Shown in pieces: positions 50,813 to 64,000 of a DNA stretch of 64,000 nucleotides. The number at the start of each line of letters is the position of its first letter. Position 1 is the first letter of the stretch. The stretch lies in IMG/VR virus record IMGVR_UViG_3300049740_000832. The stretch is one strand, 5' to 3'. The notes beneath the pieces are model-generated. The model ran no database searches. It saw nothing but the letters and a program-made list of their open reading frames with translations, and had not been told where the DNA came from. A program made the translations under genes and the position numbers. Source of the DNA: a virus.

Positions 50813-51021
50813 TGAGTAACAAATATGTAATGGTTGATGGCTCTCCTAGTTATGCTCGTGATATGGAAACTGGCGGTATTATTAATATAAATAAAGAAGA
50901 GATTGAAGCGGCGAGAGAAGCAAAAAGAAAAAGAAAAAATAAGGAACAGGAGTTCCAAGACTTAAAGAATGAAGTTGGTGAAATAAAAGAACTCCTCAAT
51001 AAACTGGTAGAGAAACTGTAA
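50812..51021 (+). CDS. small coiled-coil virion-module protein
   Basis: RD..TG.IIN...E...LK.E..EIK.LL; coupled to neighbours. Confidence 0.65.
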   Translation: MSNKYVMVDGSPSYARDMETGGIININKEEIEAAREAKRKRKNKEQEFQDLKNEVGEIKELLNKLVEKL

Positions 51022-52070
51022 TGGCAACAAATCCACCGACAATTACTAATATTACCGATACCTTCACCACATTGGTGACGAACTTAAATACCATGTCATT
51101 GGATTTAGGTGCAACTGGACGGTTAAACACCAATCAGGATTCAAGCACTGTTGCTGCTATCAATGAGTTGGAACTTGCGATTCGAGGAACATCGAATAAC
51201 CTAGTATCCGCAGACTTGTCTACGGGCGGTCTTACTGCAAATAATTTGACTGCAGCGATTGTCGAACTCGATAGTGATGTCGGTGCGAGACCTCATACGA
51301 CATTGACAACGACTGCAAAAACTCTTACAGGTGCAGTCAATGAAATTGATGCGTTACAGGGTAATGTCTCACTCACGACCACAGCAACAACTATCACTGG
51401 TGCGGTTGCAGAACATGACGCAGAACTCGGAACAATCACTGCGGGTGCAATGGGAACTACTGCTTCTACGGTAAGTGGTGCGATTGCAGAACTGGAAGTG
51501 GAGATTGACACACTTAACACAAAGGTCGAACCCGCTCAAGCATTAACGACTACCGCAACCACATTATCAGATGCGGTAAATGAACTTGATGCAGAGATTG
51601 GTAGTGCAACACTCACAACTACAGCACAGACACTTTCTGGTGCTATCAACGAACACGATACAGAGATTGGTGCAGCATCACTTAATACTTCTGCGACTAC
51701 TCTTCGTGGCGCAATCAACGAACTACACACAGAGTTGGGTGCAATACCAGATTCCGATGGCCAAAAGAATTTGGTCGCAAGTAAAGTCGGTGAATCATTA
51801 CGACTACTAGATAGTTCTTTAGGTGATTTGTCTACATTGACTTCCACCATAACAGACCATTCAACCATTGTCAAGGCAATTAATTCAAACAAAGCACAGA
51901 TTGACACATTGGACTCTGATGGTGTTGTAGTCAATCAAACTTTAGGTTTATTATCTAGTTTAGATTCTGCATTTGTTGGTTCAGAACGAAACAACTTCGT
52001 GAACGCACTCAACGCATTAAGAGCGGATATACCACTAATCTATGATGAGAACGGCACACAACTTAACTAA
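51021..52070 (+). CDS. fibre/fibritin-like protein with T.A.T..GA(I/V).E repeats
   Basis: Many copies of TTTAxTLxGAVNE-like segmented coiled-coil repeats. Confidence 0.65.
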   Translation: MATNPPTITNITDTFTTLVTNLNTMSLDLGATGRLNTNQDSSTVAAINELELAIRGTSNNLVSADLSTGGLTANNLTAAIVELDSDVGARPHTTLTTTAKTLTGAVNEIDALQGNVSLTTTATTITGAVAEHDAELGTITAGAMGTTASTVSGAIAELEVEIDTLNTKVEPAQALTTTATTLSDAVNELDAEIGSATLTTTAQTLSGAINEHDTEIGAASLNTSATTLRGAINELHTELGAIPDSDGQKNLVASKVGESLRLLDSSLGDLSTLTSTITDHSTIVKAINSNKAQIDTLDSDGVVVNQTLGLLSSLDSAFVGSERNNFVNALNALRADIPLIYDENGTQLN

Positions 52071-52088
52071 TACTTGGAGTGATACATA

Positions 52089-55000
52089 ATGACAAGTTAT
52101 GTTCCGTTAAAATTAAAAGACAGCGCGAACTTTGAAGAATTCGATACGACAAGTAGTATTGCATCAAATGATGAAAACTATTTGGCATATCAGGTAGGTC
52201 TTGCACTTTCCGAAGCAGATAGTAGTGAACCAGCTTCACTATCTCTCTTAGCTGATTTAAGCACAGATTCCGCATATTTTATTGGTGATTTAATAAACAC
52301 TGAATATGATTCAGCCATTGGAACTGGCGGAAGTGGTTCATTTTTAACTTTTAGTCAAACTGTTCAGTCAGTGTTTCAAAGAGACGGAACAGTATCTTTT
52401 ACTGACAGTGACTACCGTATTCCTATCTACACAAAAAATTATTCAGGCGCTGACCAATTGGATGACACAACAGCGAATTTGTCTCAAGTCAATCTCTTGC
52501 GAAATCGCACAAAATTTGATTATGTTGAAATTGTTTCGGTTAGTAATGGTGATGACTTAACAATAAAAATACCCTCTGAAAGAAATGTAATATTCGATAG
52601 GTTTGTTGGAACTTCAATCAATCAACATGATAGTGATGTAAATGGATATGCAACACATGCTGGCACTGTAGAGTTTGGTAACGCTCTTCATGAACCACCA
52701 AAAATGACGGTGGAGGCTGCTGTTGGTGTAACAACTGGTAGGTATGAAGATTCTGATAATGCATATGTGATTAACTTTAGAAATGCAACTATTGGTGGAA
52801 CGGCATATGCTTCGGCAGAAGCAAAATCAGAATATGAAATTGGCGACAATGGAATATATGTAAATGCTTTAACTCAAAATAATTTTCAAACAATAATCAA
52901 TGAGATGGATAGTTCTGCTAGAAGCAGTCTTGTTGATAGATTGAATAGACGTATTTTTACATCTGACTATCCAGGCTCGTATAGACTTAGTTCAGTCTCT
53001 CCTGACAGTGCCGACTGGTCACTTGATTTGTCTAATGTAATGACTGATACGAGAGATAGTGCTGGTAACTATTCCTTACAATATAATATCTATAAAAGAA
53101 CCTCAATGGCGGCTCCCAATACGGTTCTCCCATTCGCAATCAAACGGTCTAATGGTGATAGTGGAGACTATCAGGGTCTTCAAAGAATGACACCTAGACA
53201 GGTGAAGTATTCTTTGGGTCAGGAAGCAAAGAAAAGAATCGCGTCTTCTTCTACAAATATTGGTAATTACAGAATCCTGAGTTCTGCGACAGGCACACCA
53301 TCAGATATAGGTTTATCAGGAACATGGACGGCAAAGGGAACTGCAACAGATACTCGTCAAGCGGTTGTTGATGCTAACTATACAAGAACTCGTTCAAGTT
53401 CATTTTCTCGATTAAGAACTTCTACGTTTGCGGGTAACTATACAAGAACTCGTTCAAGTGCATTTTCAGAAGATTATACAACAACTAGAGAATCAACATA
53501 TAGTGCAAACTATACCAGAACACGAGCAAGTAATTACTCACTCGGTTTTGTGGGTGACTTTATTGCTAACTATACAACAGAACGTGACCAGAATTTTACA
53601 AGGAATCGAATTGCCCCTGGCGCATTAAGTTATACAAGAACTCGTTCAAGCACCTTTACTGGTAATTTTAGTAGAATACTACAATATACAACAAACTATA
53701 CTGGTGATTTTGTAGGCCCAGTGACATCAGGTTTATCAGTTATTGGCACGGCCGACATCCAGATAACCTCACAAGCGTTATTTAATGGCGCTGTTTCAGC
53801 TCTCGTAACTGTTCCGTCTGGAACAAAGTCTGTTATATTGTGTGCTAATGTTAAAACGAATGGTAATAGACGGTCATTGTTTTCCGCTGTTACGTTTGGT
53901 GGCACCGCAATGAACGAAGCGATATCTCAAAATAACACGCCCGCTGAATATACTTTTGATACAGGAATTTATAATGTAAACTATACTTCTACAGGAGTCA
54001 AGACTGTTTTTTTCTTCCTGAGTAATAATCCACAAGTCTATGGTATGGGTGCAAGGGTTATTTTTCTCAATAAGGCGTTTAGTAGTTATTCGCCAAGTGA
54101 TGCTGATGGCGTCTCCACAACAGGTTCAAGTGGCAGAGGCGATATCACTAACCACAACAAATATGCCAATGGCATAACTGTAGCAAGTGCCACATGTCGA
54201 GCGCCGAATAGTGGTGCTTATGTTGCTCAGGTTGGCGATTTGGCGTATCTATACTCACCTTATATCGATACTACTGGTTGGAATCAGGGTTTTATTCAAC
54301 ATCCAAGTGGCAATAACAGTGGGTCTATCACTGGTTATGAATTGCCAACTGGTGTTGGGCCAGCTGGGACAATTTCATTTCGTTATATGCAAAATGATTT
54401 TGGTGAAAGTGCGGCGGTAGCCTCTTGGGCACCATCAAAGTTTGAACAAGATTATGATGTTACTTATACTGGTAACTTTACGAGAGTTGGTCAATATACG
54501 TCAAATTTTTCTAGAAATTTCACAGGTAATTATACTAGAGATGCAGTTTATACTGGTAACTATACGGGAGACTTTTTAGGCGATTTCACAAGAAACCGTC
54601 AGGCCACAAGACCAGACGACTTTACTCGTGACTTTACAGGTGACTATAGTAATGACTATACCAGAACAAGAGTATCAACATATACTCGTAACGCCACTGG
54701 TGTATTTACGGGTGGATATACTGGTTACTATACTGGTGATTTTACTAGTAATTTCACTAGAATTAGCACAGCAACTACAGGAGCAACTCAACGAGTTCTT
54801 ATTGGGCCGGCAAGTAGTAATACCAATTATTGGTGGTCGAGCAGTAACCAAACCAATCGTGTATCTTTTGGAAGTTTTGAATCTTGGTTTGCTGCTACCA
54901 ATCTAATTGCTTCCAGTGGTAGTTCTGCCATAAGCGTTGAAAACTACAATACAAATGGGACATACTTACATGGATATTATGGTCATCCAGCGAGCGCGAG

Positions 55001-55838
55001 CGTCTCAAGAACAAATAAATCACCTAGTTATACAGAGACTATCAGGACAGCGACTACCGCACAACTAACTTGGATACGAGGTCATCAGCCGGGTCTTGCG
55101 GCCACAAACGGACAGGATTGGATTGGCGCATCGTCTGGCATTAGTTATCCTTATTCGAATAGTGATTACATTCAGGCCGGCCCGAATGGAACGCAATGCC
55201 CATATGGCGCAACATTCACGAAAAACCTAACTCGTGCTTATGCTCTGAATAACTCATCACAACCAACATTTGCTAATGGAATATACCCTGTAGGTTTTGA
55301 TGATGATTATGGCACGGGTGGAATATTTTGTTTTTATGCGAACAATAATAATGTTTATCTAGTTGGTTCGAATTGGTTAGATTCACAAAGCACAAGTAGT
55401 AATCGAGGGATTACAGTCTGTGATTTTTCAACGGCGGTTTCTACAAATTATACTGGTAACTATTCAACTGATTTCTTACAGAACTTCACCCGTCTAATTG
55501 AAACTAATTTTACAGGCGACTTTGCTGGTAACTATTCTAGGAACTTCACGGGGAACTATACTAGGGATTTCACTAGAACACGCACATCAACATACTTGGG
55601 TGCTGAAACATTTAGTCGTGATTTCACAGGTAACTATGAGGGTAACTATACTAGGAACTTTACTCGAACATTTGAAGGTAACTACACAAGAGACTTTACT
55701 GGAAACTACGAAGGTAATTATCAACAAAACTATATTGGTAACTATGTAGGTGAGTTTTTAGGTAACTATGCTGGTGATAGTATTGGTTCAGGGTCTAGTA
55801 ACATTGAGACATATACACTCTATGTAAGAACTGCATAA
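52089..55838 (+). CDS. putative branched fibre/adhesin with tetrapeptide repeat arms and two globular inserts
   Basis: Shares N-terminal (PLKL..., ENYLAYQ.G, YPG.Y.L, QG.Q.M, W.AKGTATD.R) and C-terminal (IETYTLYV.TA) segments with the next gene. Confidence 0.7.
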   Translation: MTSYVPLKLKDSANFEEFDTTSSIASNDENYLAYQVGLALSEADSSEPASLSLLADLSTDSAYFIGDLINTEYDSAIGTGGSGSFLTFSQTVQSVFQRDGTVSFTDSDYRIPIYTKNYSGADQLDDTTANLSQVNLLRNRTKFDYVEIVSVSNGDDLTIKIPSERNVIFDRFVGTSINQHDSDVNGYATHAGTVEFGNALHEPPKMTVEAAVGVTTGRYEDSDNAYVINFRNATIGGTAYASAEAKSEYEIGDNGIYVNALTQNNFQTIINEMDSSARSSLVDRLNRRIFTSDYPGSYRLSSVSPDSADWSLDLSNVMTDTRDSAGNYSLQYNIYKRTSMAAPNTVLPFAIKRSNGDSGDYQGLQRMTPRQVKYSLGQEAKKRIASSSTNIGNYRILSSATGTPSDIGLSGTWTAKGTATDTRQAVVDANYTRTRSSSFSRLRTSTFAGNYTRTRSSAFSEDYTTTRESTYSANYTRTRASNYSLGFVGDFIANYTTERDQNFTRNRIAPGALSYTRTRSSTFTGNFSRILQYTTNYTGDFVGPVTSGLSVIGTADIQITSQALFNGAVSALVTVPSGTKSVILCANVKTNGNRRSLFSAVTFGGTAMNEAISQNNTPAEYTFDTGIYNVNYTSTGVKTVFFFLSNNPQVYGMGARVIFLNKAFSSYSPSDADGVSTTGSSGRGDITNHNKYANGITVASATCRAPNSGAYVAQVGDLAYLYSPYIDTTGWNQGFIQHPSGNNSGSITGYELPTGVGPAGTISFRYMQNDFGESAAVASWAPSKFEQDYDVTYTGNFTRVGQYTSNFSRNFTGNYTRDAVYTGNYTGDFLGDFTRNRQATRPDDFTRDFTGDYSNDYTRTRVSTYTRNATGVFTGGYTGYYTGDFTSNFTRISTATTGATQRVLIGPASSNTNYWWSSSNQTNRVSFGSFESWFAATNLIASSGSSAISVENYNTNGTYLHGYYGHPASASVSRTNKSPSYTETIRTATTAQLTWIRGHQPGLAATNGQDWIGASSGISYPYSNSDYIQAGPNGTQCPYGATFTKNLTRAYALNNSSQPTFANGIYPVGFDDDYGTGGIFCFYANNNNVYLVGSNWLDSQSTSSNRGITVCDFSTAVSTNYTGNYSTDFLQNFTRLIETNFTGDFAGNYSRNFTGNYTRDFTRTRTSTYLGAETFSRDFTGNYEGNYTRNFTRTFEGNYTRDFTGNYEGNYQQNYIGNYVGEFLGNYAGDSIGSGSSNIETYTLYVRTA

Positions 55839-55849
55839 ATAGGGTTATC

Positions 55850-57580
55850 ATGGGAACTACACCACTAAAACTTGACGGAACTGACGGCAACCTTAAACAG
55901 ATGACAACATCTGAAGAGAACTATCTCGCATATCAGGCGGGATTGCATCTTGCATCTTTGGATTCTGGTCAAACCTATGTGATAGGTAATGTCTCTCATT
56001 CTGGAACAAATCGTTCAATCGGTTCTATAGTTGATACCAAGTTTGATGACGGAGTTGGAACACATGGATTTGCTAATGGAACTGTTCCTGTTACTCAAAC
56101 AAGTTATGCCTTCAATCAACACGCAGATTCGATAACATATTCAGACTCAGCGGATTTCAGAATTCCTACTGAATTTGTTGATAATAGTGGTTCTGCTGAA
56201 ATTCATGAACTTACAACAAGTGAACAAAACACACTAGGTGATAGAATAGCATCTGCACTTTTTACCAATGAATATCCTGGCTGTTACAAGTTAGGGTCAT
56301 CAACGCCAGGCAGTGATTGGTCAGTTCACAAATCAGGTATCTTTGAGGATACAATTGAAACTGGTGTATCAGGAACTTCATATAATCTATATGTAAAAGA
56401 CTCTATCTCATCTCCACCGTCTGCTGTCCGACCAGTTAGTGTCAAACGTTCAAGTGGTGCAACAGGAACGTTTCAGGGTATTCAGGAGATGTCTGATGCA
56501 GAGGTGAGGTATACTTTTGGTGCTCTTTGTCAAAGTCGGATGGCATCTGCTTCAAGTGCTATTGGTAATTATCTAATCAGGTCATCTGCTCAAGGTGCGC
56601 CATCAGGTGGAACATGGGTTGCAAAAGGAACTGCAACTGACAGTCGTAGGGATACAACTGATACAGATTATACTAGAACATCTGTAACTGAATTTACAAG
56701 AACTAGGTCAAGTGCCTTTCAGGGTAATTACTCTAGGGTCTTTTCTGCTGACTATACAAGGAATTCAACTGAAAACTTCACACAAGTTTTTACGGGAAAT
56801 TTCGTAGGCGACTTCACTGGTAACTATGCTACAAGTTATACGAGGACTTCTACCCGTGAAACTGATACGGATTTTACCAGAAGTTCTAGTGGTGACTTTA
56901 TTGGTAACTATGCTACAGATTTCACAAGAAACTCTACCAGAAATTCAACTAGAGATTCAAATAGAACATCAACTCGAACTAGAGTTCTTACCTATGCCGG
57001 CAACTTTGCAGGCAACTTTGCTGGTAACTTTGTTGGTAACTTTGTTGGTGACTATACTCGCGGTAGACTCTATTATTCTGACGGAACATTTTATGGCACT
57101 GCGGGTAACTATGTAGGTAACTACGCCAGAACATCAACTCGAACATCAACTCGAACATCAACTCGAACTAGAGTTACTAACTATGTCGGCGACTTTGCAG
57201 GCAACTTTGCTGGTGATTTTACAGGCGACTTTACAGGCGACTTTGCTGGTAACTATGTTGGTGACTTTACCAGAACTCGGGCGGTTGATTTTACAGGTAA
57301 CTTTATTGGCGATTTCACAGGTAACTATGAGGGTAACTATGCTACGGATTTCACAAGAAACTCTACCGCTGACCGAACTGAGGATTTCACTGGAGACTTT
57401 GTAGGTGACTTCACAGGTAACTATGAAGGTAATTACTCTAGGAATTTTTCAGCTGACTATAGTCGAGACTTCATAGGTAACTATGGAGAAAGTTTTTTAG
57501 GTAACTATGTCGGAACAACAATCGCAGCATCGACTTCTACAATTGAAACATACACCCTATATGTTAAAACCGCATTGTAA
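55850..57580 (+). CDS. putative hairpin fibre with xGN(F/Y) and TRxS tetrapeptide repeats
   Basis: Paralog of 52089-55838; 34+34 tetrapeptide units around an 11-aa tip. Confidence 0.7.
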   Translation: MGTTPLKLDGTDGNLKQMTTSEENYLAYQAGLHLASLDSGQTYVIGNVSHSGTNRSIGSIVDTKFDDGVGTHGFANGTVPVTQTSYAFNQHADSITYSDSADFRIPTEFVDNSGSAEIHELTTSEQNTLGDRIASALFTNEYPGCYKLGSSTPGSDWSVHKSGIFEDTIETGVSGTSYNLYVKDSISSPPSAVRPVSVKRSSGATGTFQGIQEMSDAEVRYTFGALCQSRMASASSAIGNYLIRSSAQGAPSGGTWVAKGTATDSRRDTTDTDYTRTSVTEFTRTRSSAFQGNYSRVFSADYTRNSTENFTQVFTGNFVGDFTGNYATSYTRTSTRETDTDFTRSSSGDFIGNYATDFTRNSTRNSTRDSNRTSTRTRVLTYAGNFAGNFAGNFVGNFVGDYTRGRLYYSDGTFYGTAGNYVGNYARTSTRTSTRTSTRTRVTNYVGDFAGNFAGDFTGDFTGDFAGNYVGDFTRTRAVDFTGNFIGDFTGNYEGNYATDFTRNSTADRTEDFTGDFVGDFTGNYEGNYSRNFSADYSRDFIGNYGESFLGNYVGTTIAASTSTIETYTLYVKTAL

Positions 57581-59499: not shown

Positions 59500-59529
59500 A
59501 AGACAAAGAAGAAGTAATGGGTTTTGAAA

Positions 59530-59898
59530 ATGGCATTAATTTCATATGAAGATATTGTAATAAATCAAGGCACCGATGTCGCTATTGAGATTCATCTCAT
59601 CAATGACAGTGGTTCTGCATATGATTTAACATCACGAACAGCTACAGCAAAAATGAAACGTAGATATGGTGACTCGGCAAATGACCCTGATACGGTTACA
59701 TTTAATGCCGTGGTTACCACACCGCCAGAAGATGGTATTGTTACATTATCTCTTACAAACGCCGAAACTGATGCTCTGAAAACAAGAGGTCGGTATGTTT
59801 ATGATGTAGAAGTATCTTACGCTGATAGTGATAACAATCAAATAATTCAAAGAGTTCTCGAAGGACAAATCGAAGTCTCACCTTCGGTCACAAAATAA
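59530..59898 (+). CDS. small virion structural/fibre adaptor protein
   Basis: I.QG.D, DLT, G...LSLT...T..L..GRYVYDVE, R..EG...V.P.VT. Confidence 0.7.
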   Translation: MALISYEDIVINQGTDVAIEIHLINDSGSAYDLTSRTATAKMKRRYGDSANDPDTVTFNAVVTTPPEDGIVTLSLTNAETDALKTRGRYVYDVEVSYADSDNNQIIQRVLEGQIEVSPSVTK

Positions 59899-59910: not shown

Positions 59911-62900
59911 ATGACTGAAAAGATTATTGTCAAGAAGGTGGTAGTAGGAACTCCTGTAAAACGAGTGACTGCTGGTTCTTTCTCTCTCACCAACTTGGGT
60001 GGTGTGGATGTTACTGCCACCGAATCTGATGGTTCTATCCTTGCATATAACCCCACAACAGGGAACTATGAAATAACGAATCTTCGTAATGATGATAATG
60101 TCACTGTCACATTTGATAGTGCTGAAAATACATATTCCTTTGCTTTCACCAATACAACATTCACTGGTTCTCTGATACCAGATAGTAACGAGGTATATGA
60201 CCTCGGCAGTGAAAATAAAAAGTTTCGTAGTCTTTTCCTGTCAGGCAACACCATCACTCTAGGGTCAATTGACCTAAAAGATAGTAGTGGTGCATTGGTG
60301 GTCGTGGATAGTGACGGAAACTCTATCAGTCTCAACATCTCTCTAGGAACTTCTCACACAGACGGTAATACGGATATTCTGACGTTTGATAGTGGGTCAG
60401 GTCAGTTTACATTTAGAGATTCAGATGTTGCAAGAACTGATGTTGCAGAAATATTTCATCAAGGCATTACAGTAGACAATGGCGCAACGATTGACTCCGC
60501 AACAATCACCAATCTCGCAAATACACAACTGACGGGTTCTCAAGCGACCTTTGATAGTGCAGATATTGGAAACCTGAAGATTACGGGTAACCTCAATGTA
60601 ACGGGGACAACCACTACTCTGAATACAGAGACAATCGCACTCGCAGATAACACTATTGTTTTGAACTCAAATGCAACGGGTTCTGCAACCGAAGATGCTG
60701 GTATCGAGATTGAACGTGGTGATGATGCAAACAAAACATTCCTCTGGGATGAGACCAACGATTATTGGTCAATCGGGTCAGAGACTTTCAACACCACAGG
60801 TAAGATTCTCTTTGCAAACGTATACAGCACAGAGGGTGACCTTCCAAGTGCATCGACATATCATGGTATGTTTGCACACGTTCATGCAACGGGTCGTGGA
60901 TACTTTGCACACGGCGGTGCATGGCACAGACTGGTTGACTCCGATACGACAGGTGAACAACAAGTATATTCATTGTATTCCAACAATGCGAGAGTCACCA
61001 ACGCACAAATTGATTCTGCAACCATTACTAATCTAGCAAGCACTCAATTGACAGGTTCACAGGCAACCTTCGACAGTGCGAATATCACATCTCTAGGTGG
61101 TATTACTGGATTTGATGCAACATCAACTTCTACCTTGCGTGGATTGTTCTCCTCTGCGGGTGACCTAACATACAATAGTGGAACAGGTCAATTCTCCTTT
61201 GATGTAGAACAGGTTTATACTAAATCTAATTTTGACAGTGACTTGGGTGCAGCCCTTGATGGTGGCACGGGTATCACTTACGATAGTTCGACAGATACAA
61301 TTTCTATAACGAACACGGGTGTTACTGCGGGAACTTATGGTTCGGCGTCTTTGATTCCTGTCTTTACTGTGAATGCACAGGGTCAACTTGATAGTGCGGG
61401 AACAGTTTCAGTTGCGGGTGTGACATCATTTGCATTCGATTCCTCAAATGGTAACATCTCTATCGGAACTGCTGATGGTGCAACATTCCTCACAACGATT
61501 ACCCTTGACCCATACACAACGAGTAATCTTGTAGAGGGAACAAACCTTTACTATACAACCGCTCGTGCTGACTCTGATGCGAAGGCATCTCTCCTTGTCA
61601 ACGATACGGGTGGTGATGGTTCACTGTCTTACGATAGTGCGACTGGTGTATTCACCTACACAGGGCCATCGTCCAGTGAGGTTCGCGCACACTTTAGTGC
61701 TGGCGGAGATATGACGTATGACAGTTCAACGGGTCGTTTCTCGATTGATGTTGAACAAATCTACAGTCAAGCAAACTTTGATAGTGACTTCCTGACACGA
61801 TTACAGACACAGATTGACAGTGCAAGTTTTGACCAACTTACTGCGGAATTCATTCATACGGATTCTGCATCCTTCGATAGTGCAACGATTACGAACCTTG
61901 CGAACACCCAGTTTACTGGTTCACAGGCGACTATCGATAGTGCTGATATCACAACTATAAAATCGACTACCGCGACCATCACAAATGCGACAGTTGATAG
62001 TGCAACAATTACAAATCTTGCAAACACTCAATTAACTGGTTCACAGGCGACTATCGATAGTGCTGATATCACAACTATAAAATCAACCACTGCGACTATC
62101 ACAAACGCAACCGTAGATTCGGCCACAGTAACTAATTTAGCAAATACACAGTTCACTGGTTCTCAAGCAACTATTGACAGTGCAAATATTGGAACGTTAA
62201 AATTTACTACACTGACCAATACAACAAGTGACATTACTGAAGGAACGAATTTATATTATACAGATGCAAGAGCGAGAAATTCAATCGGTCTCTCCGATGT
62301 CGGAGGAGACGGTTCACTCGCATATGATTCTTCAACAGGTAGATTTACATATACTGGCCCAAGTGCTGCAGAAGTTCGAGCGCATCTGACCGCAAACAAA
62401 GGTTTATCGGTAACGAGTGGTGAGTTCAATATCGACTCTGCAAATGTCAAAGGTATGTTACAGGCGGGAACAGGTGTCACATACGATAGTTCCAATGGTC
62501 TTATCAGTATCGGACAAAATGTTTCAACAACAAGCGATGTGACCTTTGGTAAGATACATGGTGATTCCGCAGAATTGCATGTTATAGATTTTGATACAAC
62601 TATCTCTGGTCATGCACCGTATAAAGAAGGTAGATTATTCTACGATAATACGCATAAAACCCTCAACTACTATGATGATATCACAAATGTTGTTCATGAG
62701 ATTGGTCTGGAAGAACACCAACGTGTATTCAATAATACAGGCGCCACTATCAAGAAGGGTTCAGCACTCTACTTCTCTGGTAACTATACATCAGGAGCAA
62801 TCGATGTTCCAACTGTAGGTCTTGCAGATGCGACAGATGTAAACGCATATAACGCACAAGGTCTTGCAGCTGGAGATATTGCAAACCTCTCCTATGGTCA

Positions 62901-64000
62901 TTGTATTATCGCTGGTCAGTTGACCGAAGTAAATACCGCACATTTGAGTGATGGACAAAACTTCTTTGTATCAGTGACACAACCTGGCTCACATCAAAAC
63001 CAATCTCCGACATATCCAAACTTCCCAATGTGTCTGGGTTGGGTTGTTCTTTCGGGTGACTCTAGCAACGGTATCCTGTTGGTTAATCAACAAAACCACT
63101 CTGTGAACTCATTCCGTGTTCGCACATCTGCACATATCGGTTCGGACTTACAAGTCGATGGTAACCTGACCATTCTGGGTAGTCAGACTACTGTGGGTCA
63201 ATCAAATGTGACACAAGGTGCGCCTTTCTATCGTCTCAATGAAGGTGACGCGATTGGTGAAGCAGGAACGACATATACTGGAACGGGTCTTGACGATGCC
63301 TTCTTCTCTGGTCACTTTACAGGAACAACAGCACAGACCTACTATGTCCGTATTGACGGTGCGGGAACTGGTGCGGGTGGTGTAGATACCTTTGAGGTTG
63401 CATTGGGTAATGATAGTGTATTTGCCTCACCTATCCTTACAAAAGTTGCAATCACAGGTAATAAACAAGAAATTCATTCTACCGATAATATTTCGGTTGA
63501 GTTCGGTGCAACCACGGGTCACGACTCAGGTGACCTATGGCAAGGTGTTGCATCTCCTGTAAATGTTGATACTGGTTTCTTCACAAACAGAAACACAGGC
63601 ACATCAGGTGTCGGTTATACCCACATGGGTCTCTATTTTGATATCTCTGACGAGAAGTGGAAACTCCTTGATGAGTATGACTCAACACCAACAGGAACTA
63701 TTAATGCTGCGGATTCATCATTCAGTCTTGCAACATTGGTTGCAGAAACCTTTGAAGGTAATCTGACTGGTGCGGTGACAGGTAATGCCTCGACTGCAAC
63801 GGCACTCGCAAGTGGTCGTAACTTCTCCATATCTGGTGATGTGACTGCAAGTGCCGTATCGTTTGATGGAACGGGTGCGGTAACATTAAGTGCCGCAATC
63901 ACTGCTGATACGATTATCAATGCAGACATCAAATCAGATGCCGCAATTGCAGATACTAAACTTGCAACAATATCAACATCTGGTAAAGTAAGTAACTCTG
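59911..64000 (+). CDS. giant tail fibre protein (>1363 aa, 3'-truncated by window)
   Basis: Manual translation open from ATG 59911 (GAGGA RBS) to window end; [37 protein letters not shown] fibre motifs; missing from ORF track. Confidence 0.88.
61876..62190 (+). repeat. in-frame tandem 120-nt (40-aa) repeat in tail fibre
   Basis: [12 protein letters not shown](F/L)[27 protein letters not shown], about 2.6 copies; related units near 60490 and 61010. Confidence 0.85.

What the first reader, a model, noticed from the sequence alone, without database searches (positions are those of the whole stretch)
53370..55769. Paralog encodes a Y-shaped three-way junction with two tip domains
Seen: ORF 52089 has three repeat arms (about 28 units 53370-53711, about 26 units 54444-54767, about 27 units 55440-55769) separated by two non-repetitive ~230-240 aa domains. 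The same pairing rule resolves them like an RNA three-way junction. Units 1-14 of arm 1 pair with the last ~14 of arm 3 (stem). The rest of arm 1 pairs with the first ~14 of arm 2 around domain A, where the irregular six-residue units SRILQY and TRVGQY fall opposite each other. The rest of arm 2 pairs with the first ~13 of arm 3 around domain B. Arm lengths add up as required; I found two Gly/Gly mismatches. Inference: a single polypeptide forming a branched fibre that displays two different putative receptor-binding domains, with the hairpin stalk acting as a modular display scaffold.
Basis: partly seen in the sequence, partly recalled or inferred. Interest (0 to 1): 0.88.

Follow-up and report, generated by a model that had tools for sequence, protein, structure and literature searches.

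The report
Possibly branched fold-back phage fibre protein
A 1249-residue tail-fibre-region protein of a marine T4-like phage has three four-residue repeat arms around two globular inserts, and the arms most likely pair into a stem plus two hairpin branches that each carry a tip domain, an undescribed fibre scaffold, though no structure prediction confirms it.

Summary
ORF 52089-55838 has three period-4 repeat arms (aa 428-545, 786-895, 1118-1227) around two non-repeat inserts of 244 and 224 aa.

- I learned a pairing code from 25 simple hairpin homologs at a fixed register: Tyr-Tyr, Gly-Arg and Phe-Ser/Arg favoured; Gly-Gly, Arg-Arg and Arg-Tyr avoided.
- Under that code the three-way model scores 30 bits against 3.8 ± 7.1 for in-frame shuffles (0 of 5000 reach it).
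- Each helix alone is only z 1.9-2.4, and a global fold search cannot separate the topologies.
- In 16 two-insert homologs, the flanks of the same insert are complementary (mean z 2.2 and 1.7). The cross pairs needed by the main rival are not (0.1 and 0.3).
- Across the family, the start of the first arm covaries with the end of the last arm.

AlphaFold2 left the arms and insert B unmodelled. Insert A is a jelly-roll like C1q/TNF and phage receptor-binding heads. Oligomeric state and real shape are unknown.

This scan has already reported the simple hairpin form of this family in at least eight other genomes. The two-insert branched reading was not among those notes.

The parts
52089..55838 (+). 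Whole gene, 1249 aa (P0001). It belongs to a large unannotated family of marine myophage fibre-region proteins.
   Evidence: ORF list and translation. No Pfam or PHROG hit. More than 200 metagenomic homologs. It lies directly downstream of the baseplate wedge genes and the DUF4815 giant protein.
52089..53366 (+). N-terminal domain (aa 1-426), conserved across the family. It is about 280 aa in most members and carries an extra insertion in this subfamily. Presumed attachment end.
   Evidence: Homologs share this part at 50-60% identity. The architecture list shows a constant head of about 280 or about 430 aa. Function is inferred, not tested.
53379..53537 (+). Arm 1, first half (aa 431-483): outgoing strand of the basal stem.
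   Evidence: Its best partner among 66 even registers in all arms is aa 1175-1227 at c=1658 (11.4 bits, next 3.1). Shuffle z 2.4. It is homologous to the basal stem of simple hairpin members.
53547..53723 (+). Arm 1, second half (aa 487-545): outgoing strand of branch A, with the six-residue unit at 528-533 and the irregular Pro-Gly stretch at 507-514.
   Evidence: Ladders at c=1330 and c=1328 have no clash. Shuffle z 2.2. Mean z 3.3 over 12 subfamily proteins.
53724..54440 (+). Insert A (aa 546-784): beta-sandwich tip domain. The first part is a jelly roll.
   Evidence: AlphaFold2 pLDDT 70-96 over model residues 150-400. VIA-align Z 7-9 to C1q, TNF family, BclA, Tuc2009 and PRD1 receptor-binding heads and to carbohydrate-binding modules. 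BFVD gives mycobacteriophage minor tail proteins. Homologous domains end stand-alone proteins of about 290 aa.
54441..54611 (+). Arm 2, first half (aa 785-841): returning strand of branch A, with two six-residue units (798-803 and 816-821).
   Evidence: The first six-residue unit faces that of arm 1. The second faces the irregular Pro-Gly stretch of arm 1.
54606..54620 (+). TRPDD motif (aa 840-844) in the middle of arm 2: proposed junction point. It is conserved as TTPDD in the subfamily.
   Evidence: Found in 16 of the proteins held. It is the only Pro-containing non-periodic stretch of arm 2.
54621..54767 (+). Arm 2, second half (aa 845-893): outgoing strand of branch B.
   Evidence: Ladder at c=2014 has 8 aromatic pairs, 7 code pairs and 1 Gly/Gly clash. 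Shuffle z 1.9. It also fits aa 1175-1225 at c=2064 (z 2.4), so this assignment is not unique.
54768..55448 (+). Insert B (aa 894-1120): second tip domain, fold unknown, with three Cys.
   Evidence: Not modelled by AlphaFold2 (pLDDT 25-33; mean 31). Only four homologs found. No Pfam hit. No Atlas hit.
55449..55595 (+). Arm 3, first half (aa 1121-1169): returning strand of branch B.
   Evidence: flanks of insert B in P0001: z 1.6.
55596..55613 (+). Irregular six-residue step (aa 1170-1175) in arm 3: proposed junction point. Conserved in the subfamily.
   Evidence: The in-register run from the base stops here, after 53 residues, in all members of the subfamily. The motif is listed.
55611..55769 (+). 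Arm 3, second half (aa 1175-1227): returning strand of the basal stem.
   Evidence: Family-wide covariation with the start of arm 1.
55770..55838 (+). Conserved 22-residue C-terminal tail ending in ETYTLYV-like residues, plus the stop codon. It is brought back next to the N-terminal domain by the stem.
   Evidence: A constant 22-residue tail in nearly all homologs, whatever the number of arms. Docking on the N-terminal domain is inferred.
55850..57580 (+). Neighbouring paralog (576 aa, P0237): same head and tail, one plain hairpin without an insert. It served as reference for the pairing rule.
   Evidence: At c=827 it has 18 Gly-Arg, 11 Phe-Ser, 18 Asn-Thr and 0 Gly-Gly pairs over about 140 residues per arm, and registers shifted by 8 give 6-8 Gly-Gly. 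A fold search gives one continuous hairpin.

Best explanation
The gene encodes a virion fibre protein of a marine T4-like myophage, built on a fold-back beta-ribbon scaffold. SHOWN: the repeat unit has four residues. One face alternates a small or basic residue (Gly, Arg, Ser, Thr) with an aromatic residue or Arg. The other face is polar (Asn/Asp, Thr/Ser). In simple members of the family the two arms match in reverse order under a pairing code: Tyr opposite Tyr, Gly opposite Arg, Phe opposite Ser or Arg; almost never Gly-Gly, Arg-Arg or Arg-Tyr. INFERRED for this protein: the first 14 units of arm 1 pair with the last 14 units of arm 3 to form a basal stem of roughly 18 nm. This brings the conserved C-terminal tail back to the N-terminal attachment domain. 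The rest of arm 1 pairs with the first half of arm 2 around insert A. The second half of arm 2 pairs with the first half of arm 3 around insert B. The junction sits at the TRPDD motif of arm 2 and the irregular six-residue step of arm 3. The result is a stem carrying two hairpin branches of roughly 16-19 nm, each with a different globular domain at its far end. Insert A is a jelly-roll like known receptor-binding heads, so the likely role is host-surface binding with two specificities on one fibre. The hairpin-plus-domain unit would act as an exchangeable cassette. I cannot tell whether the branches splay apart (a true fork) or pack together, nor whether the ribbon stands alone or bundles in a trimer.
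For: 1. Layout and pairing reproduced, with two Gly/Gly clashes and facing six-residue units.
2. The pairing code was learned with no register optimisation from the non-basal parts of 25 simple hairpin homologs: Tyr-Tyr 273 observed against 89 expected, Gly-Arg 227 against 90, Phe-Ser 91 against 46, Gly-Tyr 6 against 77, Arg-Tyr 15 against 111. Ladders of 150-250 residues have almost no clash.
3. Family-wide mutual information between the first-arm start and the last-arm end peaks where the first Tyr faces the last Tyr (0.123, against about 0 +/- 0.015 at offsets more than about 6 residues from the peak). At that offset Gly-Arg is highest and Arg-Arg lowest.
4. In P0001, arm 1's first half has arm 3's last half as its unique best partner.
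5. In-frame shuffles give stem z 2.4, branch A z 2.2, branch B z 1.9 and the whole model z 3.7, with 0 of 5000 reaching it.
6. In 16 two-insert homologs, the flanks of one insert are complementary (mean z 2.19 and 1.72), unlike the cross pairs (0.07, 0.34) and the controls (0.03, 0.82). Same-insert pairs win in 14 of 16 proteins. P0001 itself gives 2.4 and 1.6 against -0.9 and -0.1.
7. In 12 subfamily proteins the branch A pair is the strongest (mean z 3.3, all positive).
8. Modularity: 107 anchored members carry 0/1/2/3/4 inserts in 16/52/27/11/1 cases. P0012 has a B-type insert before an A-type insert. P0005-7 carry an A-type domain in the second position. Inserts of other members hit FG-GAP and Laminin_G_3.
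9. Insert A fold.
10. Gene position in the fibre block after the baseplate genes (PMC7029224 on the host-recognition cluster downstream of VrlC).
Against: No predicted or solved structure shows any of the three pairings. AlphaFold2 gave pLDDT near 30 and no strands for all arms.
Fold searches by dynamic programming give similar totals to four topologies under both a simple rule and the learned code. With low hairpin cost they prefer local fold-backs inside arms.
In P0001 the second half of arm 2 also fits the second half of arm 3 (c=2064, z 2.4), and arm 3 can fold on itself (z 1.3).
When the register is optimised in both native and shuffled sequences, P0001's own stem is not above shuffles (z 0.0).
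The 88%-identical P0003 gives z near 0 in the flank test, which shows how noisy that test is.
Only 2 of 24 arm substitutions between P0001 and P0003 fall on paired positions (p 0.15).
Homologs are related, so the family tests are not 16 independent trials.
Mirrored register breaks may partly reflect a direct duplication between arm 1 and arm 2.
My attempt to show a bare side hairpin in the 83-residue-stem group was inconclusive.
Confidence: 0.55

Rival explanations
1. The same strand pairing, but realised in an oligomer. Three chains bundle so that each 'helix' is a six-stranded needle, as in the T4 gp37 tip. Alternatively, complementary arms pair between chains rather than within one chain. 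The fibre would then not be a single-polypeptide fork, and the two branches might be forced to lie together.
For: Phage fibres are usually trimers (established knowledge). Insert A resembles heads that are trimeric in known structures, such as C1q, TNF family, BclA, PRD1 P5 and Tuc2009, and heads that follow collagen-like stalks in phage proteins. One ribbon face is aromatic and would gain from burial. Sequence complementarity cannot tell pairing within a chain from pairing between chains.
Against: The aromatic face also carries many Arg and Gly arranged as cross-strand pairs, which suits a solvent-exposed single-layer ribbon as well. No His ladder or other trimer-core motif is present.
Confidence: 0.3
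2. A different topology: branch A forms, but arm 2's second half pairs with arm 3's second half (i+j = 2064). Insert B and arm 3's first half are then looped out, and arm 1's first half is left free or paired elsewhere.
For: c=2064 gives 15.3 bits, z 2.4, with 10 aromatic pairs and 2 clashes. It is the top partner of arm 3's last half in P0001. Mean z is 1.8 over 12 subfamily proteins.
Against: It conflicts with the family-wide pairing of the first-arm start with the last-arm end. It leaves arm 1's first half without its unique best partner. It cannot coexist geometrically with branch A and a base-anchored tail. The fit may simply reflect that arm 2's second half and arm 1's first half are both Arg-rich strand types.
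Confidence: 0.08
3. One long stem made of all of arm 1 with all of arm 3, with arm 2 folded on itself as a spike at TRPDD and both inserts sitting at the top of the stem.
For: All half-arms are 12-14 units long, so the length arithmetic also fits. TRPDD could be a turn.
Against: Arm 2 folded on itself gives 8-13 clashes at every in-phase register, because its two six-residue units are unmatched. Arm 1's second half against arm 3's first half gives z 1.0. The cross pairs this model needs have mean z 0.07 and 0.34 in 16 homologs.
Confidence: 0.04
4. The arms are not paired ribbons at all, but flexible or otherwise folded low-complexity linkers. The apparent complementarity would come from alternating Gly-rich and Arg-rich blocks.
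For: AlphaFold2 predicts no secondary structure in the arms. Several alternative pairings score nearly as well in P0001.
Against: In simple members the mirror match runs 150-250 residues with almost no clash at a register fixed by the two ends. The code is strongly non-random against in-phase shifted registers. Covariation peaks at equal distance from the base.
Confidence: 0.08

Closest known systems
Needle and tip of the phage T4 long tail fibre protein gp37 (PDB 2XGF; Bartual et al. 2010, recalled from my own knowledge; iron sites described in PMC6957217)
   Same: A fibre end in which the chain runs out to a distal receptor-binding head and comes back, so that outgoing and returning strands form a thin rod. 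It is also a host-recognition protein of a T4-like phage.
   Different: gp37 is a trimer held by seven iron ions on His-x-His motifs. It has one tip, no tetrapeptide repeat, no pairing code and no branch. The arms here contain no His and there is no sequence match to any solved structure.
Simple hairpin members of the same unnamed family, including the neighbouring paralog (55850-57580) and the proteins reported earlier by this scan in other genomes
   Same: The same N-terminal domain, the same 22-residue C-terminal tail, the same four-residue unit and the same pairing code.
   Different: Those have two arms and at most one insert at the turn. This protein has three arms and two inserts, which needs a junction. 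I found no published description of the family, and it has no Pfam or PHROG model.
Branched receptor-binding complexes of phages such as CBA120, G7C and K1-5 (recalled from my own knowledge)
   Same: One phage particle displays two or more different receptor-binding modules on a branched appendage.
   Different: There the branches are separate proteins docked on one another. Here both binding modules and the branch point would lie in one polypeptide.
C1q/TNF-like jelly-roll heads (BclA C-terminal domain, lactococcal phage Tuc2009 receptor-binding head, PRD1 P5)
   Same: The fold of the first half of insert A (Z 7-9, rmsd 3.1-3.6 over 95-110 residues) and its distal position on a fibre.
   Different: Sequence identity is 8-14%, and Z is in the range that common beta-sandwiches reach by arrangement alone. 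Those heads are C-terminal and trimeric. Here the domain is inserted in a hairpin and its oligomeric state is unknown.

Membership tests
Unnamed fold-back tetrapeptide fibre family (marine T4-like myophages) | Conserved N-terminal domain beginning P-L-K-L-K-D-S-like | tested here: met
   Homologs align over the N-terminal part at 50-85% identity. Sequences shown.
Unnamed fold-back tetrapeptide fibre family (marine T4-like myophages) | Constant 22-residue C-terminal tail with the ETYTLYV-like motif | tested here: met
Unnamed fold-back tetrapeptide fibre family (marine T4-like myophages) | Arms of four-residue units with an aromatic residue or Arg at every fourth position | tested here: met
Unnamed fold-back tetrapeptide fibre family (marine T4-like myophages) | First-arm start complementary in reverse order to last-arm end, at the register where the first Tyr faces the last Tyr | tested here: met
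   c=1658 gives 11.4 bits and is the unique best of 66 registers. z 2.4 against shuffles. Family covariation.
T4 gp37 needle type fibre tip | His-x-His repeats that bind iron along the rod | tested here: not met
   No His in any of the three arms.
T4 gp37 needle type fibre tip | Homotrimer with six-stranded rod | not testable with these tools
   The one three-copy job, on insert A with short flanks, returned no verdict. It is recorded under Tried and rejected only.
T4 gp37 needle type fibre tip | Sequence or profile similarity to gp37 or to any solved fibre | tested here: not met
   No PDB sequence match below E 0.2. No Pfam or PHROG family.
C1q/TNF-like jelly-roll head (insert A) | Ten-strand (two five-stranded sheets) jelly-roll fold with significant structural match | tested here: inconclusive
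   Z 7-9 over 95-110 residues to many jelly rolls, including carbohydrate-binding modules. Foldseek PDB E > 1e-3. BFVD E 3e-6 to a mycobacteriophage minor tail protein.
Collagen-like or polyglycine-II fibre segments (e.g. gp38 of S16-type phages) | Gly at every third residue | tested here: not met
   The period is 4, not 3.

The most novel reading that the evidence does not exclude
A single protein chain folds like a branched RNA. Three strands carrying a residue-level pairing code form a true three-way junction of two-stranded beta ribbons. Hairpin-plus-domain cassettes can then be added, removed or reordered by recombination, giving fibres with one to four or more different binding heads. 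The 3347-residue member of phage C48C1 would be an extreme case.
Probability: 0.4. Interest if true: 0.9.

Novelty: new variant of a known kind. Interest (0 to 1): 0.68.

Why it matters
If the branched reading is right, abundant marine T4-like myophages (relatives of those that infect picocyanobacteria and SAR11) build host-recognition fibres on a scaffold with no described counterpart. It would be a long two-stranded ribbon whose register is set by a simple cross-strand code, and which can branch so that one gene displays several binding domains. That would explain how the hypervariable host-recognition region of these phages swaps specificities. It would also give a rule for reading fibre architecture straight from sequence in thousands of unannotated metagenomic proteins. 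Finally, it would offer protein designers a programmable, RNA-like way to build rods and junctions. Even if only the hairpin closure holds, the family deserves a profile model and a structure.

Tried and rejected
1. AlphaFold2 on aa 400-1249 with a 24-row alignment. Arms and insert B were unmodelled and only insert A was usable.
2. AlphaFold2 on insert B alone with 5 rows. Mean pLDDT was 31, so there was no fold to search.
3. Complex prediction with three copies of insert A plus short flanks. It returned no verdict, which is no evidence either way.
4. Protein Atlas look-alikes for insert B. Nothing usable.
5. Gly-Arg counting alone. It is too weak to pick registers in P0001.
6. A 20x20 matrix trained on the conserved basal stem. 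It mostly memorised stem sequence, so I discarded it.
7. A 20x20 matrix from hairpins without separating the two faces. It was too noisy, and out-of-phase registers scored as well as in-phase ones.
8. Global fold searches with a seed rule and with the learned code. The three-way junction is the optimum only when fold-backs inside arms are made costly, and constrained topologies differ by only a few bits.
9. Counting mirrored register breaks automatically in 25 hairpins. My detector found only 17 of 54 mirrored, although the ladders stay in phase, so I make no claim from that count.
10. A search for a bare side hairpin in the group with an 83-residue basal run. Inconclusive.
11. A second homolog search aimed at arm 2 to enlarge the TTPDD subfamily for coupling analysis. 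It found no new members, leaving about 16 sequences, too few.
12. Paired substitutions between P0001 and P0003. Two pairs, p 0.15.
13. The Synechococcus phage S-RIM2 'structural protein' hit. It is a low-complexity match to a different Val/Leu tetrapeptide protein, not a family member.
14. The window's own assembly is not held, and the nearest record has no match.


Full report
WHAT IS THERE. ORF 52089-55838 (+) encodes 1249 residues. It lies in the structural block of a T4-like myophage. Upstream are gp6-like and other baseplate wedge genes and a 1743-residue DUF4815 protein. Downstream are a 576-residue paralog and a further giant fibre-like ORF. The nearest isolates by the baseplate wedge protein are distant: Phage C48C1 of the Kyanoviridae at 34% identity and Pelagibacter phage HTVC008M at 30%. 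In pelagimyophages and cyanomyophages the genes after the VrlC-type protein are the tail fibres of the hypervariable host-recognition cluster (PMC7029224).

THE REPEAT ARMS. The protein has no Pfam, PHROG or PDB sequence match. Each unit has four residues, with an aromatic residue or Arg at the third position. There are only four phase breaks in the three arms.

THE FAMILY AND ITS PAIRING CODE. More than 200 metagenomic proteins share the N-terminal domain and a constant 22-residue C-terminal tail. Between these ends they carry very different numbers and lengths of arms.
- The neighbouring paralog is the simplest case. When the first arm Tyr faces the last arm Tyr, it shows 18 Gly-Arg, 11 Phe-Ser and 18 Asn-Thr pairs and no Gly-Gly pair over about 140 residues per arm. 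Registers shifted by two units give 6-8 Gly-Gly pairs.
- Other simple members show the same ladder for 150-250 residues.
- I fixed the register from the two conserved ends, with no optimisation, and used only the non-basal parts of 25 such proteins. In-phase shifted registers served as background.
- The aromatic face then shows a clear code. Tyr-Tyr, Gly-Arg, Phe-Ser and Phe-Arg are enriched. Gly-Gly, Arg-Arg and Arg-Tyr are depleted. Aromatic-Gly pairs are almost absent.
- Over 90 anchored family members, mutual information between columns counted from the arm start and columns counted back from the arm end peaks sharply at equal distance from the base. Even offsets stand above odd ones, as expected for a two-stranded ribbon. 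At that offset Gly-Arg is highest and Arg-Arg lowest.

The fold-back ribbon is therefore well founded for the family. Earlier notes of this scan reached the same conclusion on other genomes. My code agrees with theirs on Gly-Arg and Phe-Ser but not on Tyr-Arg, which I find depleted.

THE THREE-WAY READING IN THIS PROTEIN.
- Under the learned code, arm 1's first half has one outstanding partner among 66 registers in all arms. That partner is arm 3's last half at the family register (11.4 bits against 3.1).
- In this subfamily the in-register run from the base stops after 53 residues, at a conserved irregular step in the last arm. Arm 2 carries a conserved TTPDD-like motif at its middle. These two points are where a junction would lie.
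- In-frame unit shuffles give z 2.4 for the stem, 2.2 for branch A, 1.9 for branch B and 3.7 for the whole model, with 0 of 5000 shuffles reaching it. The registers were chosen after inspection, so the single-helix values are optimistic.

RIVAL TOPOLOGIES. All six half-arms are 12-14 units long, so length arithmetic cannot choose between topologies.
- A long arm 1/arm 3 stem with arm 2 folded on itself fails. Arm 2's two six-residue units are unmatched and give 8-13 clashes. The other pair this model needs is at chance level (z 1.0).
- Arm 3 folded on itself is weak (z 1.3).
- Arm 2's second half against arm 3's second half is as good as the stem (z 2.4). However, it conflicts with the family-wide basal pairing and cannot coexist with branch A.
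- Fold searches by dynamic programming do not separate these topologies.

TESTS ON HOMOLOGS. The best discriminating test used homologs. In 16 two-insert members with a long middle arm, I aligned the 44-48 residues on either side of each insert in reverse order, optimising the register in native and shuffled sequences alike.
- Flanks of the same insert give mean z 2.19 and 1.72.
- The cross pairs needed by the long-stem rival give 0.07 and 0.34, and two control pairs give 0.03 and 0.82.
- The same-insert pairs win in 14 of 16 proteins. In P0001 the scores are 2.4 and 1.6 against -0.9 and -0.1.
- In 12 subfamily proteins the branch A pair is the strongest of eight pairs tested (mean z 3.3).

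These proteins are related, the test is noisy (P0003 scores near zero), and branch B is clearly the weakest element.

THE INSERTS.
- AlphaFold2 modelled insert A with pLDDT 70-96. Its first half is a jelly roll, closest to C1q, TNF-family, BclA, Tuc2009 and PRD1 receptor-binding heads and to carbohydrate-binding modules (Z 7-9), and to mycobacteriophage minor tail proteins in BFVD. These values are in the range of common beta-sandwiches, so I claim the fold class and not membership.
- Homologs of insert A end small stand-alone proteins, and they occupy the second insert position in P0005-7.
- P0012 carries a B-type insert before an A-type insert.
- Other members carry FG-GAP or Laminin_G_3 domains.
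- Of 107 anchored members, 16, 52, 27, 11 and 1 have 0, 1, 2, 3 and 4 inserts.
- Phage C48C1 encodes a 3347-residue member with about ten inserts.
- Insert B could not be modelled.

VERDICT. The fold-back scaffold and the return of the chain to its base are well supported. A separate hairpin around each insert, and hence a three-way junction, is the best-supported topology, at about 55% confidence. It rests on sequence statistics only. Shape, oligomeric state and binding function are inferred. I found no published description.

Noticed in passing
window 53370-55769 (the three arms): Almost every Gly-type unit, G-N-[YF]-[TS], is also an N-x-S/T sequon on the polar face. I counted about 25 by eye in the three arms. 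Fibre glycosylation is a possibility, but Asn/Thr may equally be purely structural.
   Followed up: no
L001:8659-18702 (Phage C48C1, OQ984149.1): A cultured Kyanoviridae phage encodes a 3347-residue member of the same family, annotated as a hypothetical protein. It has the same head and tail, one 622-residue arm and about ten inserts. It would be a good experimental handle.
   Followed up: partly
L002:1-5104 (Synechococcus phage S-RIM2 structural protein): This protein has two runs of G-N-V-T / G-D-L-T tetrapeptides on either side of a short irregular stretch, and no ETYTLYV tail. It may be a Val/Leu analogue of the fold-back idea in another virion protein. It matched only through low complexity.
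   Followed up: partly
window 59524-59898: A small ORF with a weak LtfC-like beta-sandwich match (PF23926, E 6.5e-4, below the curated cut-off). It sits just before the giant 3'-open fibre-like ORF 59911-63999, which has a 120-nt tandem repeat at 61876-62183.
   Followed up: no
P0009 aa 506-523 and 686-703 (homolog), equivalent to window about 53640-53690 and 54480-54550: In the subfamily, an 18-residue segment of arm 2 is a direct copy of a segment of arm 1, and both are bounded by register breaks. The branch A strands may have arisen by duplication of a segment that is complementary to its own reverse.
   Followed up: partly
window 51021-52070: A 349-residue ORF between the DUF4815 giant and this gene hits a PHROG tail fibre family (phrog_25848, E 1.7e-11). 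It may be the connector that carries the fibres.
   Followed up: no
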